From: Escherichia coli O157:H7
Lineage (GTDB): Bacteria; Pseudomonadota; Gammaproteobacteria; Enterobacterales; Enterobacteriaceae
NCBI RefSeq assembly: GCF_013167455.1
Contig: NZ_CP038328.1
Reading direction: 5' to 3' (one strand)
Length of the DNA: 64,000 nucleotides
Position 1 is the first letter of the stretch. Each line of letters opens with the position of its first letter. Positions 1 through 6,000 of the stretch are shown one piece after another. A program made the position numbers.

Positions 1-3000
1 ACACCTTTACTGTTTTCACCAAACGGCTGCACTTGTTCGCTGTCCAGCATCGATTGCGTTTCCAGGAACCAGATGTCCTGGGTTTTAATTTTCGAACAGT
101 TCAGCACAATCGCGAGATCAATCCCGCCCTGCTCAATGCCCTGCGTCGCCAGATGCACCGCAGTCAGTGACGAGTTACTGGTGCAGTTCATGTTAGGCGG
201 CAAATACTGCAAGCGATATTTGCGCGCAAGATGGCTTGAAATCGTGTCCTGCGACATCTTTGAGGCATGCAGATTTGTGATGGATTGCGTTAAGTTGATA
301 TCTTCTACATCGTTGTAATTATAGAAAGATTTGTAATCCAGCCCGTCGATACGCGGCCCAATACCGGTCAGATAAACGCGAACGTTGCGCCCGGCCAGGC
401 AATGCTTATCCAGCATTGCCTGTTCCAGGGCTTCGTCGATCAACTGAGACAGCAGGTCCAATGCGCTATCGTCCACCTGTTTCAACGTCGCCACTGACGG
501 ATTACCCTTAAACCCGCATTTAATGGCTTCCTCGTTGGAGGTAAACCAGGGTGTACGCGCAACGCGTTTCCCCTGTTTCAGATTGTCAATTAACTGCGAA
601 CAGTCTTCGGCATACGGCATCCACACGCTGTAACCCGAAATAATAGCGGCATTGTCCACAGTCTTATCCCTTAATGACGAACGCGTAGTAGTTGCCGCCT
701 TCCGTTGCGCCAACAAGCAGGACATGGTTCAGCGCAAGTTTCATCGACTGGCGTACAAAATTCACACGCTCATCAAAGAATTCCACCGTATTTGGAATCG
801 CAGGTACTGCCTGCTTCTTAATGCAGTCAGTAATCACGGCGAGGTTAAGCAAACCAGCGGCAGAGGCGACAAAACCAAAGCAAGCGTTATAGTTCACTAC
901 CGGCACCGCCGGGTTTTGCGCGGCGAAGGTGTTGTAAATCGCGTCAATTTCGATACGAGAATGGTCATCGCTACCGTTGCTGGTACCACATACCAAATCA
1001 ATATCGCCAGCAGAGATGCCCGCATGCGTAAGGGCGCGTTCAATGGCCAGCGCCATCGACGCGGATTTTTCTTCCAACAATGAGGCGTCGAAGTAGGTAT
1101 TGCTGCATGACTTGCCGTAGCCCACCACTTCCGCGAGAACCTCAGCGCCACGCGCCACAGCCAACTGCGGATCTTCCAGCAGCAGCATGCAAGCCCCTTC
1201 GCCCGGAACATAACCTTGCGGATCTTTACCGTAAATCTGATAGTCGCTCGCCTCAGCCGTCATGTGGATCTTTTGTGTCACCGCATCCATATACAGCGAC
1301 ATCGACGGGAAGTACTCATCCGCGCCGCCAACCAATACCTGCGGTTGCAGGTTCTGCCGGACGATTTCATAACCGTAGGTCAGCGCGCCCAGCGCCGAGT
1401 TTTCCCCTGTCGCAAGCGTAGTGGTATACCCTTTGATCCCTTCAGAGATCCCGCAGAACGTTGGGATCGCATTCATCAGCGAGCCAGGAAATTCCGATGT
1501 ACGTACTTTGCGTGGATCGGGTTTCAGACTTTGCAGATATTTGTAGGTGGTTTCCTGCGGGCCGCGGGACATCCCCATGATCATGCCCAACTCATCGCCG
1601 TCGCGTTTGATTTTACGCTTCGCCTGTTCCAGCGCTTCGGTGAGTGCGATCAGGGCAAACGTGCCGCCACGGGTCGCTTTACGCTGATCGAAACGACGCA
1701 GGTGTTTACGCGGCTCCAGCCCGGAAACCTGGAACGTTTTAAAGTTGCTTTCCGTTTCCGGAAGCGTAGCTTCGCTGAAGCTGTACTCTTCATCAAACAG
1801 CTCGGCAAACTGGTTTGATTCATCCAGCACGGCCAGCAGCTCTTTGGCTTCTTCCAGTGTATCGTCCGGGAAGGTTACGCTACCCAGTTCAACGTGGTGG
1901 TCCTGCGCCCAGATGTTTTCCAGAACCTGGTTGAGCGTGTGGCCTATTGCGGATACTGCACCGACGCCCGAGATAGCCACACGCTTCGAATCATAGGTAC
2001 TGACCGGAATGGACGCGGGCTCCATGCTCAGGATCATGCAGCAGTTGTTGCCGCCGAAGGCATAGTTATTCTTCATGAAGATGTTCACTTTGCGATCGCG
2101 AAACTCATTCGGCACATAGTCCAGATCGCAATTCGGGCGTGCATGGCTGAAATTCAGCGTCGGCAGTACGCGGTTATCCGGAAGCGTTGCCAGACAGGCA
2201 ATCAGTTCCACAATCCCCGCTGCGCCAATGTTGTGGCCAAAGTAAGATTTGGTGGAGCTCACCAGCAGTTTATCGTGGTTAGCGAAGACCTTTTTCATTG
2301 CCAGCGTTTCAATACGGTCATTGGCTTCGGTACCCGTACCGTGCGCGTTGACGTAATCGATTTGCTCCGGGGTTACGCCCGCATTTGCCATTGCCTTGTT
2401 CATGACCTGCACCGCTCCGCTGGCACGCGGATCTGGCCCGGTTTCATGGAAAGCATCGCAGGAAGTGGCGTAAGAGAGGATCTCACCATAAATGGTCGCC
2501 CCGCGTGCTACGGCGTGCTCATACTCTTCCAGCACGATAGCGCCAGCGCCTTCACCAATCGACATACCGGACTGACCCGAGAACGGCGTACAAGTGTCTG
2601 GATGCATGACATTCAGTGCGTAGAATCCGGCAAAGGTCGGCAGATAGATGGGCTCAGTGCCCACTGCCAGCATGGTTTTGCTTTTACCATTCTGGATGTA
2701 GTCAAAGGCCATCCCCACGGCGTTCGGGCTGGCGGTACACGCGGTCGCCACCAGTTCAACCCCACCCTGTAAGCCCAGCAGCGTTGAAACGCTGGAACAA
2801 CAGGATGAGAATGCGCCGGAAAAGAGTGCTTTACGCAGCGAGAAATCTTCCATGCGCTGTTCGAACAGCGGCAAAAATGCCTCTGTTCCCGCGGACGAAA
2901 CACCGACGATCATGCCTGTTTCTTTGAGGGTGTCACGGCTATCCATCAGGCCGGCCTGACTCAGCGCATCTTTACCCACTTTGTAGGCCCAGAGCGCTGC

Positions 3001-6000
3001 GTTATCCAGTGAATCGATAACATCTTCGTTCAGATCGGAGTATTCAATGTCATGCAACACTTCTGCCGCACGCGCATTTTCAAACCATTTTGCAAAGCGT
3101 TCGCTATCCTTAACGCCATTTTTTTTATTTAATAATGCTTCCCGGAAATCCTGAATATTTTCCGCCAGTGAGGACAAAATCCCCAGCCCGGTAATAACAA
3201 CTCTTTTCCTGTTCGTTTTCATGAATAATACCTGGCAATCCCGCCAATTGGGGTTAATTTAAGCCGCGTAAGCTATAGTCACGCGGCGATATTCATTACG
3301 CTGCGCTTTTATTTTTTGACGCGTCGATATAACTGTGCTCAGTTGGGCTAACCAACATGCTCAGGTTATAAATAAACGGCATACATTTTGATTGCGCCGG
3401 AATAATTCCGTGAGCAGTTTGAATTTCGTAGCCGCTGATGTCAGACCAGGCGTAATCCTTTTCCAGCAGGGTCAGGGCAATGAAACGCTGCAACGCTGGG
3501 GAAAAGAGTGCCTTCACGACATAGCCCACGTCTTGACCTTCCACCAGCACGCGATCGCCAGCCTCAATGCCTTCGCATTCTTCCTGTGCGATCATGCCGA
3601 TGAGTTTATTACCGGTATACTCCTGGGATAGCTCTGTCACCGCGTCCTTGCCAATAAAATCATCTTTGTCGTACTGCACCGCCCACTGCATCTGCAACTG
3701 AACCGGATTCACCGCCTGACCTTCCCAGAGGCTGGCATCCCAGCACGGATTTTCGAGGCGTACGATTTTTTGATAATCCAGGCCGCCGGTCTGCATCAGG
3801 TATTTCTCGCCAACGGTTAACAGTTTTTCCCACTGCTCCGCCAGTTTCGCCTGCTCACCGATGGTCATGTACGCATACTCACCGTGTTTACCACAGCGGA
3901 AGAGCAGCAGATCCTCCTCGGTATTCATGTATTCGTAGTAAGGCAGGCCAATCACGTCAAAGCCATGAATTTCAGACATGATCTCCCAGGAGTATGGGCC
4001 TTCGAGCAGGATTGCCCCCCAGTTGTTTTCCCGCATATCCTGAATTTCAGGCATCGATTGAATATCCAGTTCTTCCGCTTTTTCGAGAATGGTATTCATG
4101 CTGGCGATCAATTCGGCAGCCGAAATATCTTCTGAAAGCAGGTAATAACCGTCAATGCTGCACAGCACATAGACGTCTCCGCGAATGGTGCCCTCTTCAT
4201 TCAACACCAGTGAGTAGATTGCCTGCTCATCACGAATGATGGAGACATCTGCGGAAACCAGCTGGTTGATCAGCGCCCAGGCATCATCGCCCATGACGCT
4301 AACAATAGAGAGGTGAGAATAGTCCACCAGCAGCGCGTTTTCACGAACGGCTTTATATTCGGTCATAGCATCGTGATAAGAAGAAGGTAGGGTACGGTTG
4401 TTATATACCCCCATTACCGCATTATTTTTCAAGTGAAATTCAGCAAGAGATTTCATAAACGTGTCCTGATAATTAATTCTTTAATAAGTAGTTAATCGTT
4501 TTTCTTTTGAATAACGAAGGTGGCCAGACTATTGATACTGCGCATATAGGACGGGTCGTCACTTTCGCTGATCTTGATATCAAATACTTTATCCAGCAGA
4601 ACGACAATTTCCGTTGCATCGACGGAGTCCAGTTTAAAACCATTACCAAACAGCGCAGTATCATCATCAATTTGCGCTTCATCGCGTTGAATATTCAGTC
4701 GCTGGATGATCTCAGTTTTAATGGTCATCAGAACTTCTTTACGCTGTTCAATAGCGTCATTCATGGTAGACATAATATTTACTCTCTTATTGGATTACTT
4801 GGTTTCACGGAAATTGATAATGGTGCCCTGACTAACCAGCTTTTTACCGACGTACGCGGTCACGGAATAGTGTTTAAAGCCACTGGCATCCGAAAAAGCC
4901 AATTTGCTGACAACATCAATAGAATCACCCGGATAGGCGATATCTTTAAATTTCAGGTTCTGAGCCGCCAGCACGCCGCGTACCTGGCTGCGCCGGGTAC
5001 GGATAATCTCCAGCATTTCAGGGCGGTGAATGCGTGCGTGAATATCACGTAACGACTTCAGCTCTTCCTCAAAACGTTCGCGCCAGATATCGCAAATGTC
5101 GGTCAGGAAAGAGAGATACTCGCTGGCCTGGCCGAAGATTTCCGAAATAATCACCCCGGGCATAATCGGATCTTCCGGGAAATGCCCCAGTAGATACGGT
5201 TCGTTATAGGTGACGTGTTTCACGACACTGACAAAGCCATTTTCACCGTATTTATAATCTGCAATTTTATCGACCATCAGCAGCGGCTGACGCCAGCCGC
5301 CCATTTCGAGGAAGATTTTCGAAGGAATCGTGTATTTAGACATAAATCACCGCATGACCAGGCCGCCATCGATAACGATGGTCTGGCCGACAATGTAGCT
5401 GGAGGCAGAGGAACTTAAGAAGACGGTGGTGTTCGCCACTTCTTCACATTTACCCAGACGGCGTAACGGGATGGTACTGGTTACCGCACGGACCACTGCG
5501 CGGGATACTTTTTTCACCATTTTCGATTCAATCATTCCCGGTGCGACCGCGTTGACGCGCACGCCCCAGGGTGCCATTTCTGCTGCCAGCGTGCGGGTGA
5601 AGCCTAGGATCGCCCCTTTTGACGCGCTGTAATTCGCCTGACCGACGCTTGGGATCAGCGCTGCAATAGAGGCAACGTTAATAATGGCGGGATTTTCTGC
5701 CGCACGAAGCAGCATCAGCGCGTCTTTCGTCAGACGGAAAATGCTGAACATGTTGGTTTCGATAACCTGGGTGAAATCCTCATAACTCATCGAGGCAAAC
5801 AGGCTGTCTTTAACGATGCCCGCGTTATTTACCAGCACATCAATCTTGCCAGCTTGGCGCTCTATCTGTTCGCACAATGCGCTCACGCTCTGGGGGCAGG
5901 CAAGATCGCACTGCACAATATGCAGTTTATCGCCTGCAGGATGGCTTGCTTTCAGCGCCGTTAATTGCACGTCGTTGGATTTATAGAGCGCATAAACATC

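What the first reader, a model, noticed from the sequence alone, without database searches (positions are those of the whole stretch)
664..3222. Fused ketosynthase with an active N-terminal domain and a catalytically dead C-terminal KS-like domain
The N-terminal half keeps the KS Cys-His-His triad (ATACTAS, HGTGT, GH). The C-terminal half keeps the fold-level pattern but the corresponding positions are Gly/Asn/Ser (TLATGENS, CGTSNGS, NYNACFG). In type II PKS and aryl-polyene systems KS and chain-length factor are normally separate proteins, so a single-chain KS-CLF is unusual and implies a chain-length-controlled product.
Basis: seen in the sequence. Interest (0 to 1): 0.7.

Follow-up and report, generated by a model that had tools for sequence, protein, structure and literature searches.

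The report
CylI-like fused ketosynthase/chain-length-factor protein
This E. coli O157:H7 gene encodes one protein made of a working chain-extending enzyme fused to a dead copy of itself; this design is already known from the streptococcal pigment-toxin pathway and from omega-3 fatty-acid synthases, so it is a real but fairly ordinary member of a known kind.

Summary
The ORF at 664-3222 (minus strand, 852 aa) is real. It lies in O-island 47 of E. coli O157:H7 (RefSeq WP_000856330.1).

- **N-terminal half:** a FabF-type ketosynthase with Cys162/His294/Lys325/His330, invariant in 56 relatives.
- **C-terminal half:** the same fold (24% identical to the N half) without the catalytic residues.
- **Structure:** AlphaFold gives one rigid body (pLDDT 94.7, pTM 0.95). 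Its best solved match is the single-chain KS-CLF didomain of PfaC (6RIW, TM 0.77).
- **Not unusual:** dozens of sequence clusters of 700-850-aa double-KS proteins exist. One (30% identical) sits in a canonical cyl (granadaene) operon at the CylI position, directly after the CylF-like aminomethyltransferase, as here.
- **Differences from cyl:** the E. coli locus shares CylD/G/AcpC/Z/A/F/I homologues. It lacks CylE and CylJ and adds a Ser-type KS, a cryptic thiolase-fold protein and a Lol-like exporter.
- **Context:** the locus is collinear with the otpAB two-partner secretion genes in three genera, and a TpsA gene sits directly upstream in a fourth (Proteus).

Verdict: a new member of a known kind, product unknown. 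The TPS linkage is the most interesting lead.

The parts
664..3222 (-). 852-aa single-chain KS-CLF gene (RefSeq WP_000856330.1, annotated 'beta-ketoacyl-ACP synthase family protein')
   Evidence: ORF. 100% identical DNA in E. coli O157:H7 genomes, with annotation. Pfam double KS.
2014..3222 (-). N-terminal active FabF-type ketosynthase domain (aa 1-403). Catalytic codons: Cys162 at 2737-2739, His294 at 2341-2343, Lys325 at 2248-2250, His330 at 2233-2235.
   Evidence: PDB FabF matches up to E 1.9e-77. NCBIfam NF005589 scores 435.5, above its cutoff of 387. Residues invariant in 56 sequences. Codons checked.
667..2013 (-). Short linker (about aa 400-412) followed by the C-terminal KS-fold domain without catalytic residues (CLF-like). 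Equivalents: Glu607 at 1402-1404, Thr747 at 982-984, Asn779 at 886-888, Phe784 at 871-873. An acidic helical insertion lies at about aa 440-500.
   Evidence: Pfam second KS pair. FabF alignments. Self-alignment. Position 607 varies (E/V/I/Q/A) within the close family. No Cys/His/His in any of 56 relatives. AlphaFold model.
3296..4456 (-). CylF-like aminomethyltransferase (GcvT fold) gene, immediately upstream of the KS-CLF gene
   Evidence: NCBIfam GcvT hits all below cutoff. A GCV_T gene directly precedes the fused KS-CLF gene in loci L002, L005, L006, L007, L009, L010 and L011. 25% identity to the CylF-position protein of a canonical cyl operon, E 9e-25.
4492..4773 (-). Dedicated acyl carrier protein
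   Evidence: NCBIfam ACP families. The DSV serine motif is visible in the translation.
4795..5343 (-). FabZ-family 3-hydroxyacyl-ACP dehydratase
   Evidence: NCBIfam FabZ partial match. Pfam FabA and weak ApeI-like hits in orthologues.
5347..6108 (-). FabG-type 3-oxoacyl-ACP reductase (SDR)
   Evidence: NCBIfam NF009466 scores 225.3, above its cutoff of 222. RefSeq coordinates.
6122..6490 (-). Holo-ACP synthase (AcpS-type phosphopantetheinyl transferase)
   Evidence: TIGR00516 scores 79.8, above its cutoff of 59.8.
1..659 (-). 5' part of the next gene, a 407-aa divergent KS ('KS3') that runs off the left end of the window. It has Ser at the nucleophile position, His kept, and the second His replaced by Tyr.
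   Evidence: Full gene in L001 19436-20659. Pfam KS. Alignments to DEBS KS and to the N domain.
6506..8125 (-). TpsB transporter (OtpB) of the two-partner secretion pair. Same strand, 15 bp upstream of acpS.
   Evidence: RefSeq annotates it as ShlB/FhaC/HecB family. Orthologues carry POTRA and ShlB Pfam domains. Named otpAB in bioRxiv 10.1101/2020.04.13.038984.
8214..12026 (-). TpsA exoprotein (OtpA, 1270 aa), first gene of the conserved array
   Evidence: TIGR01901 haemagglutinin N-terminal domain. Collinear in Kosakonia and Acinetobacter; Proteus has a TpsA gene directly upstream but no TpsB.

Best explanation
The gene encodes a natural single-chain ketosynthase/chain-length-factor protein of the CylI type. 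It is the chain-extending enzyme of a dissociated (type II), FAS-like secondary-lipid pathway in O-island 47 of E. coli O157:H7.

**Shown by sequence.** The N-terminal FabF-like domain keeps the full Cys-His-His (plus Lys) machinery for decarboxylative Claisen condensation with malonyl-ACP. The C-terminal domain keeps the fold but none of the catalytic residues.

**Predicted with high confidence.** The two domains pack as an intramolecular pseudo-dimer, like the PfaC KS-CLF didomain.

**Inferred by analogy with KS-CLF systems.** The dead domain acts as the obligatory partner that completes the dimer and shapes the acyl pocket at the interface. This would set how long the chain can grow.

**Inferred from gene content.** The protein works with the locus's own AcpS, ACP, FabD, ketoreductase and FabZ-type dehydratase. 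No enoyl reductase is encoded in the locus. The pathway therefore most likely builds an unsaturated, probably polyene, acyl chain, as the homologous cyl pathway does for granadaene. The chain would then be handed to a LolCDE-like ABC transporter, a LolA-like protein and an outer-membrane protein for export to the cell envelope.
For: - **Domain architecture and E-values:**
- **Catalytic residues:** invariant in the N domain and absent from the C domain in 22 close and 34 distant relatives.
- **The dead domain is under purifying selection, not decaying:** mean identity 64% against 76% for the N domain within the close family, and full length is kept in many genera.
- **Structure:** AlphaFold pLDDT 94.7, pTM 0.95. 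The top solved match is PfaC KS-CLF 6RIW over 948 columns, TM 0.77.
- **Link to cyl:** a 30%-identical relative (P0135) occupies the CylI position in an operon whose order matches cylD-G-acpC-Z-A-B-E-F-I-J. Its relatives come from Bacillus cereus, Paenibacillus, Clostridium, Thermosporothrix and actinobacteria, largely the groups reported to carry cyl operons (PMC6985545).
- **Shared genes:** homologues of CylD, G, AcpC, Z, A, F and I are present in the E. coli locus.
- **Gene pair:** GCV_T directly precedes the fused KS-CLF gene in 7 loci.
- **Operon structure:** 3-88 bp gaps between genes.
- **No enoyl reductase** among the 17 genes.
Against: - No biochemical or genetic data exist for this locus in the searched literature.
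- Chain-length control by the C domain is inferred only by analogy.
- The CLF hallmark of aromatic type II PKSs, a conserved Gln at the Cys position, is absent. Position 607 is Glu here and varies within the family.
- The locus lacks CylE and CylJ, so the end product cannot be granadaene.
- Housekeeping FabI could in principle reduce the enoyl intermediates, so a polyene is not proven.
- S. agalactiae CylI itself was not compared directly.
Confidence: 0.75

Rival explanations
1. The C-terminal domain is not an inert chain-length factor. It has its own catalytic role, for example as a malonyl-ACP decarboxylase for chain priming (like the Gln of KSQ or actinorhodin CLF), or as an acyltransferase using another nucleophile.
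For: Glu607 sits at the Cys position, next to invariant Gly606 and Asn608. Cys745, Asn777 and Asn779 are invariant within the 22-member close family. No obvious FabH-type starter enzyme is present in the locus.
Against: Position 607 is E/V/I/Q/A within the close family and almost anything in distant relatives. Cys745 is not conserved outside the close family. A conserved catalytic function at these positions is therefore unlikely.
Confidence: 0.1
2. The pathway makes an ordinary saturated or mono-unsaturated fatty acid, with reduction by housekeeping FabI, for a specialised envelope lipid or protein lipidation. In this case the fused KS is simply a FabF paralogue with a structural appendage, not part of a polyene-type system.
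For: The N domain is closest to FabF. E. coli has FabI elsewhere in the genome. The Lol-like exporter suggests an envelope lipid.
Against: The closest locus-level relatives are cyl-type polyene operons. The dehydratase gives weak ApeI-like (aryl-polyene dehydratase) Pfam hits. The pathway has its own ACP and AcpS. The conserved KS-CLF architecture is typical of chain-length-specialised systems.
Confidence: 0.15
3. The protein is a PUFA-synthase (PfaC) or type I PKS fragment, or a PigJ/RedX-type double KS of prodiginine biosynthesis.
For: The best solved structural match is PfaC KS-CLF. There are weak NCBIfam hits to PfaA and PigJ.
Against: Identity to PfaC is 17%. The protein ends after the CLF domain, with no DH domains. 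Its neighbours are discrete type II enzymes. PigJ scores 97 bits against a cutoff of 900, and the active KS of the query aligns to PigJ's C-terminal half, which is the opposite domain order.
Confidence: 0.02
4. The long ORF is an artefact: an assembly or frameshift fusion of two adjacent KS genes, or a decaying pseudogene.
For: An older cyl nomenclature lists two genes, 'CylH/I' (PMC6985545). This shows that such proteins have been split in annotation.
Against: The DNA is identical or nearly identical in 380 complete E. coli genomes. Full-length orthologues of 840-870 aa occur in Kosakonia, Klebsiella, Serratia, Proteus, Acinetobacter, Aeromonas and Neisseria. The structure prediction is confident and contiguous.
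Confidence: 0.01

Closest known systems
CylI ('CylH/I') of cyl operons, the granadaene (ornithine rhamno-polyene) haemolytic pigment pathway of Streptococcus agalactiae and other Gram-positive bacteria
   Same: About 800-aa double KS with an active N half and a dead C half. 30% identity over the full length to the CylI-position protein of a canonical cyl operon, E 2e-105. It lies directly downstream of the CylF-like GCV_T gene. The locus also shares CylD, CylG, AcpC, CylZ and CylA homologues.
   Different: No CylE (N-acyltransferase, reported as universal in cyl operons), CylJ (glycosyltransferase), CylB-type permease or thioesterase homologue. The E. coli locus has an extra Ser-type KS plus a cryptic thiolase-fold protein, a LolCDE/LolA-like exporter, an outer-membrane protein, YcdU and a two-partner secretion pair. 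The host is Gram-negative, whereas cyl operons were reported only from firmicutes, actinobacteria and a chloroflexus (PMC6985545). GBS CylI itself was not compared here.
PfaC KS-CLF didomain of bacterial PUFA synthases (PDB 6RIW; Santin et al., Biochemistry 2020, cited as ref. 117 in PMC7949117)
   Same: Covalently linked KS and CLF in one chain forming a pseudo-dimer. It is the best solved structural match over the whole length (TM 0.77/0.71, 948 columns).
   Different: 17% identity. PfaC carries further dehydratase domains and belongs to a multidomain megasynthase. The protein here stands alone among discrete type II enzymes.
KS-CLF heterodimers of highly reducing type II PKSs (ishigamide Iga11/Iga12, PDB 6KXD; aryl-polyene ApeO/ApeC, PMC8358021)
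   Same: FabF-like KS plus an inactive partner, working with a discrete ACP, KR and DH and no ER to give polyene chains. The N domain hits 6KXD_A at E 5.9e-58. Gram-negative envelope lipid export context.
   Different: Those are two separate polypeptides, whereas here they are fused. No aryl starter genes (no ApeH-type ligase) are present. A GcvT-like gene is present.
Actinorhodin-type KSalpha/KSbeta (CLF) of aromatic type II PKSs (PDB 1TQY)
   Same: Both halves match: N to 1TQY_A at E 3.4e-53 and C to 1TQY_B at E 1e-13. The logic of an active KS paired with a dead partner is the same.
   Different: Separate proteins. The CLF Gln at the Cys position is not conserved here (Glu, and variable). 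The locus encodes a KR and DH and has no cyclases or aromatases.
PigJ/RedX double-KS proteins of prodiginine biosynthesis
   Same: Single chain with one active and one inactive KS-like domain.
   Different: NCBIfam PigJ scores 97 bits against a cutoff of 900. The query's active domain aligns to the C-terminal half of PigJ, so the domain order is reversed. The pathway context is different.

Membership tests
FabF/KAS II-type condensing enzyme (N-terminal domain) | Thiolase-fold KS with PF00109 and PF02801 | tested here: met
   Pfam E 7e-30 and 1.5e-35. FabF structures up to E 1.9e-77. Foldseek TM about 0.9 to FabF chains.
FabF/KAS II-type condensing enzyme (N-terminal domain) | Cys-His-His triad plus the active-site Lys | tested here: met
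   Cys162, His294, Lys325 and His330 align to the FabF catalytic residues and are invariant in 56 sequences.
FabF/KAS II-type condensing enzyme (N-terminal domain) | Reaches NCBI's curated score for housekeeping FabF (equivalog TIGR03150) | tested here: not met
   453.5 bits against a cutoff of 493.75. Only the looser subfamily model NF005589 is passed, 435.5 against 387. It is FabF-like but not the housekeeping FabF.
Chain-length factor / KSbeta (C-terminal domain) | KS fold that lacks the catalytic Cys (and His-His) | tested here: met
   Second Pfam KS pair. Glu607/Thr747/Phe784 at the catalytic positions.
Chain-length factor / KSbeta (C-terminal domain) | Forms the KS-type dimer with an active KS | tested here: inconclusive
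   Prediction only: pTM 0.95 for the two-domain model and a whole-length match to the PfaC KS-CLF crystal structure, TM 0.77. No experimental structure, and contacts could not be computed.
Chain-length factor / KSbeta (C-terminal domain) | Conserved Gln at the Cys position (aromatic type II PKS CLFs) | tested here: not met
   Glu in E. coli. E/V/I/Q/A in 22 close relatives and almost any residue in distant ones.
Chain-length factor / KSbeta (C-terminal domain) | Determines product chain length | not testable with these tools
   Needs product analysis of domain swaps or pocket mutants.
CylI-type fused KS-CLF of cyl (granadaene) operons | About 800-aa protein with an active N-terminal KS and an inactive C-terminal KS-like domain | tested here: met
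   P0135 (812 aa), at the CylI position of canonical cyl-type operon L002, has the same pattern. 30% identity over 852 aa, E 2e-105.
CylI-type fused KS-CLF of cyl (granadaene) operons | Gene directly follows the CylF-type aminomethyltransferase gene | tested here: met
   Window: GcvT-like gene at 3296-4456, then the KS-CLF gene at 664-3222. The same pair occurs in L002, L005, L006, L007, L009, L010 and L011.
CylI-type fused KS-CLF of cyl (granadaene) operons | Direct similarity to S. agalactiae CylI | not tested
   No GBS sequence was retrieved. The link rests on operon L002, the taxon overlap between and PMC6985545, and the 'CylH/I' naming.
cyl operon (locus-level membership) | CylE N-acyltransferase, reported as universally present in cyl operons (PMC6985545) | tested here: not met
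   tblastn with the CylE-position protein of L002 finds nothing at E<=0.01 in L001 (47 kb), the window, or the Kosakonia and Acinetobacter loci. No GNAT is annotated in the 17 genes.
cyl operon (locus-level membership) | Glycosyltransferase (CylJ or an equivalent) | tested here: not met
   No tblastn hit and no glycosyltransferase annotated in the locus.
cyl operon (locus-level membership) | FAS-like core CylD/CylG/AcpC/CylZ plus the ABC ATPase CylA | tested here: met
   tblastn E from 2e-29 to 6e-11. NCBIfam results.
PfaC (PUFA synthase subunit) | KS-CLF followed by FabA-type DH domains in the same polypeptide, within a pfa cluster | tested here: not met
   The protein ends after the CLF domain. 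Its neighbours are discrete enzymes. 17% identity to 6RIW.
PigJ/RedX | NCBIfam NF053555 equivalog score | tested here: not met
   97.1 bits against a cutoff of 900. Only query residues 147-378 align, to profile positions 498-727.

The most novel reading that the evidence does not exclude
The KS-CLF gene is part of a conserved, horizontally mobile 17-gene module: otpA, otpB, acpS, KR, DH, ACP, cylF-like, KS-CLF, Ser-type KS, cryptic thiolase-fold protein, Lol-like exporter genes, OMP, fabD and ycdU. On this reading the module is a Gram-negative offshoot of the granadaene (cyl) pathway, and the unsaturated or polyene lipid it makes is functionally coupled to the two-partner-secreted exoprotein OtpA. 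The lipid could be attached to OtpA or act together with it at the cell surface, with the Ser-type KS and the thiolase-fold protein as a candidate off-loading or transfer enzyme. Lipidation of a TpsA protein has a precedent in class IV CdiA (PMC8510554).
Probability: 0.25. Interest if true: 0.7.

Novelty: new member of a known kind. Interest (0 to 1): 0.35.

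Why it matters
**For enzymology.** The protein adds a Gram-negative, pathogen-borne branch to the CylI/PfaC class of covalently fused KS-CLF enzymes. Because it is one soluble polypeptide native to E. coli, it could be a convenient model for how a dead KS domain sets chain length.

**For EHEC biology.** The 'polyketide or fatty-acid' genes of O-island 47 have no assigned product in the literature searched. Linking them to the cyl haemolytic-lipid pathway and to the function-unknown OtpAB secretion system gives concrete hypotheses to test.

**For the CylF question.** The strict GcvT-like/KS-CLF gene pairing in loci without CylE argues that CylF-type proteins act in chain assembly or tailoring. 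This differs from the proposal that CylF supplies ammonia for the ornithine head group.

Tried and rejected
- **Literature search for the genes.** Searching for Z1546-Z1551 found only unrelated papers. OI-47 reviews discuss only GrvA and other regulators, not the lipid genes.
- **Choi et al. 2007.** The paper on OtpAB (PMC1855909) is not held.
- **PDB entry 9S5H.** This is the best sequence match of the N half, and its partner chain also matches the C half. Its source could not be identified from the literature.
- **The 317-aa neighbour by sequence methods.** Pfam, NCBIfam, a PDB sequence search and a PDB profile search all found nothing. hhalign against the KS-CLF alignment gave only a weak hit (probability 17%). 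Only structure prediction followed by Foldseek revealed a thiolase fold.
- **Names for distant relatives.** The listing of cluster members returned almost no names.
- **Promoter and terminator scans.** Results were at shuffle level and uninformative.
- **A scan of genome contigs to fetch S. agalactiae cylI.** I considered this and decided against it.
- **Readings rejected.** PUFA synthase fragment, PigJ/RedX, assembly artefact, and a conserved decarboxylase role for residue 607.

Full report
**Where this is.** The first 7 kb of the window is 100% identical to E. coli O157:H7 chromosomes. The region occurs in 382 of 5,426 complete E. coli genomes. RefSeq annotation of the matching stretch and the literature (PMC8565820) place it in O-island 47 (z1528-z1556). 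The rest of the window is ordinary E. coli backbone: the pga, efe, put, rut and tor genes.

**The observation.**
- The ORF at 664..3222 on the minus strand encodes 852 aa and is WP_000856330.1.
- Pfam finds the KS N- and C-terminal domain pair twice: strongly at aa 6-358 and weakly at aa 413-811.
- The N half matches FabF structures up to E 1.9e-77. It passes NCBI's FabF subfamily model but not the housekeeping equivalog.
- The C half still matches FabF and CLF structures at E 1e-20 to 1e-13. It is 24% identical to the N half (E 3e-17).

**Catalytic residues.**
- Cys162, His294, Lys325 and His330 of the N domain are invariant in 22 close relatives and 34 distant ones.
- HMMER alignments to FabF, the BLASTP self-alignment and MAFFT alignments put the C-domain equivalents at Glu607, Thr747, Asn779 and Phe784. 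The secondary-structure register of the model agrees.
The domain is nonetheless catalytically dead as a ketosynthase.
- Position 607 varies (E/V/I/Q/A) even among close relatives. This argues against a conserved decarboxylase residue like the CLF Gln.
- The dead domain is conserved: 64% mean identity against 76% for the N domain. It is under selection, not decaying.

**Structure.**
- AlphaFold2 on a 56-sequence alignment gives pLDDT 94.7 and pTM 0.95 for the whole 852-aa chain. The relative placement of the two domains is therefore confidently predicted.
- Foldseek against the PDB ranks first the single-chain KS-CLF didomain of PfaC (6RIW), with TM 0.77/0.71 over 948 columns. FabF and ishigamide KS chains follow, each covering one half.
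- This supports an intramolecular KS-CLF pseudo-dimer. I could not compute interface contacts or the pocket.

**Is the fusion unusual? No.**
- Full-length orthologues (56-89% identity) occur in Kosakonia, Klebsiella aerogenes, Enterobacter, Serratia, Proteus mirabilis, Providencia, Pantoea, Mixta, Aeromonas, Acinetobacter and a Neisseria.
- A search of 1.8 billion representatives finds about 34 further clusters of 750-850-aa double-KS proteins among the top 150 hits.
- Most of the top 50 AlphaFold-DB matches are full-length double-KS proteins from actinobacteria, firmicutes, spirochaetes, deltaproteobacteria and vibrios.
- All 56 aligned members have an active N domain and a dead C domain.

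**What family it belongs to.**
- One distant relative, P0135 (812 aa, 30% identity), lies in an operon with this order: Acyl_transf_1, KR, ACP, FabZ, ABC ATPase, ABC permease, 1055-aa GNAT, GCV_T, double KS, glycosyltransferase, thioesterase. This matches the published order cylD-G-acpC-Z-A-B-E-F-I-J of the granadaene operon (PMC4315905).
- P0135's relatives come from Clostridium, Bacillus cereus, Paenibacillus larvae, Paenisporosarcina, Thermosporothrix and actinobacteria. Firmicutes, actinobacteria and Thermosporothrix are the groups Armistead et al. reported as carrying cyl operons, and Paenisporosarcina and Clostridium are named there. That paper lists the KS as 'CylH/I' (PMC6985545).
- The E. 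coli protein is therefore CylI-like.
- The GCV_T gene directly precedes the fused KS-CLF gene in all seven cyl-like loci examined. It is absent from two unrelated contexts of fused KS-CLF genes (L003 and L004).

**How the E. coli locus differs from cyl.**
- tblastn with the eleven proteins of the canonical operon finds CylD, G, AcpC, Z, A, F and I homologues in the E. coli, Kosakonia and Acinetobacter loci. It finds no CylB, CylE, CylJ or thioesterase.
- The E. coli locus is therefore not a cyl operon in the strict sense, because CylE is described as universal in cyl operons.
- Instead, the KS-CLF gene is followed by these genes:
  - A 407-aa divergent KS with Ser at the nucleophile position, His kept and the second His replaced by Tyr.
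  - A 317-aa protein with no detectable sequence family. AlphaFold (pLDDT 85) and Foldseek show it has a thiolase fold.
  - A LolD-like ATPase, a periplasmic protein, a LolC/E-like permease, a LolA-like protein, a probable outer-membrane protein, FabD and YcdU.
- No enoyl reductase is encoded in the locus.

**Mechanism proposed.**
- Shown: an active FabF-type KS is covalently joined to a dead KS-fold partner, and the locus has its own AcpS, ACP, FabD, KR and DH.
- Inferred: the pseudo-dimer elongates enoyl or polyenoyl-ACP with malonyl-ACP, and the dead domain shapes the pocket and limits chain length. Without an ER, the product is an unsaturated or polyene acyl chain, which is then exported to the envelope by the Lol-like system.
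- The head group, the starter unit and the role of the GcvT-like protein are unknown.
- Because the GcvT-like/KS-CLF pair persists where CylE is absent, the proposal that CylF merely supplies ammonia for ornithine (PMC6985545) seems an incomplete account.

**Context worth following.**
- The whole array runs from TpsA and TpsB through the lipid genes to YcdU. It is collinear in E. coli O157, Kosakonia radicincitans and an Acinetobacter. Proteus mirabilis also has a TpsA gene directly upstream, and Serratia rubidaea lacks the TPS genes.
- The TPS pair is OtpA/OtpB, a genuine secretion system of unknown function (PMC5422565; bioRxiv 10.1101/2020.04.13.038984).
- Lipidation of a TpsA protein has a precedent in class IV CdiA (PMC8510554). 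A functional link between OtpA and the lipid pathway is therefore a reasonable but untested hypothesis.

**Verdict.** The residue assignments were off, and the claim of unusualness does not hold. This is a new, uncharacterised Gram-negative member of the known CylI/PfaC class of fused KS-CLF enzymes. Interest is moderate for the protein itself and higher for the conserved linkage to two-partner secretion.

Noticed in passing
window 12026..1 (minus strand), continuing left of the window; L001 11697-32026; L010, L011, L005: The two-partner secretion genes otpA/otpB sit on the same strand, 15 bp upstream of acpS. The array is collinear through fabD and ycdU, 17 genes in all. This holds in E. coli O157, Kosakonia radicincitans and an Acinetobacter. 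Proteus has a TpsA gene directly upstream, and Serratia rubidaea lacks the TPS genes. This suggests that OtpAB (function unknown) and the lipid pathway work together.
   Followed up: partly
L001 11697-12683 (just left of the window); L011 20557-21561; L010 20559-21560: YcdU is a polytopic membrane protein that E. coli K-12 also has, at the edge of O-island 47. It is the conserved last gene of the locus in Kosakonia (53% identity) and Acinetobacter (38%). K-12 ycdU may therefore be a relic of a lost locus rather than the flank of an insertion.
   Followed up: partly
L001 18486-19439 (left of the window): The 317-aa protein after KS3 has no Pfam, NCBIfam or PDB sequence match, and NCBI often names it 'ATP-binding protein'. 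AlphaFold (pLDDT 85) and Foldseek show a thiolase fold (top matches StlD, OleA, FabH, DpsC, PqsBC) with no Cys at the nucleophile position. It is probably a degenerate partner of KS3, and the database name looks wrong.
   Followed up: yes
window 1-659 (minus strand, partial); L001 19436-20659: The 407-aa KS next to the fused gene has Ser at the nucleophile position in E. coli, Proteus and L007, and Cys in L006. His is kept and the second His is replaced by Tyr. It is therefore not a canonical condensing enzyme and may be a transferase or decarboxylase.
   Followed up: partly
window 3296-4456 and loci L002, L005-L007, L009-L011: The GcvT-like (CylF-type) gene always directly precedes the fused KS-CLF gene, including in loci that lack CylE. 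This fits poorly with the published idea that CylF only supplies ammonia for the ornithine head group.
   Followed up: partly
window 7650 (otpB codon 159); window 21657-22469: Strain differences. In the window, otpB (539 aa) and the ToxR-family regulator gene (270 aa, probably grvA) are both intact. In strain FDAARGOS_293, otpB has a nonsense mutation and the regulator gene is frameshifted.
   Followed up: yes
L006 4405-6894 and 10001-12550; L007 309-2774 and 8382-10868: Two metagenomic or MAG relatives of the locus each carry two fused KS-CLF genes. L007 also carries a discrete KS/CLF-like pair and two amine-oxidase/desaturase-like genes. This suggests more elaborate products in this family.
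   Followed up: no
window 12001-14000: A strongly AT-rich stretch (33% GC against about 50% in the surrounding DNA) lies upstream of otpA, between it and the fimbrial operon. It contains several promoter-like matches on the minus strand, but the count of such matches is at chance level.
   Followed up: no
(E. coli genomes collection): Of the 382 E. coli genomes that carry the region, one has it on a plasmid record rather than the chromosome.
   Followed up: no
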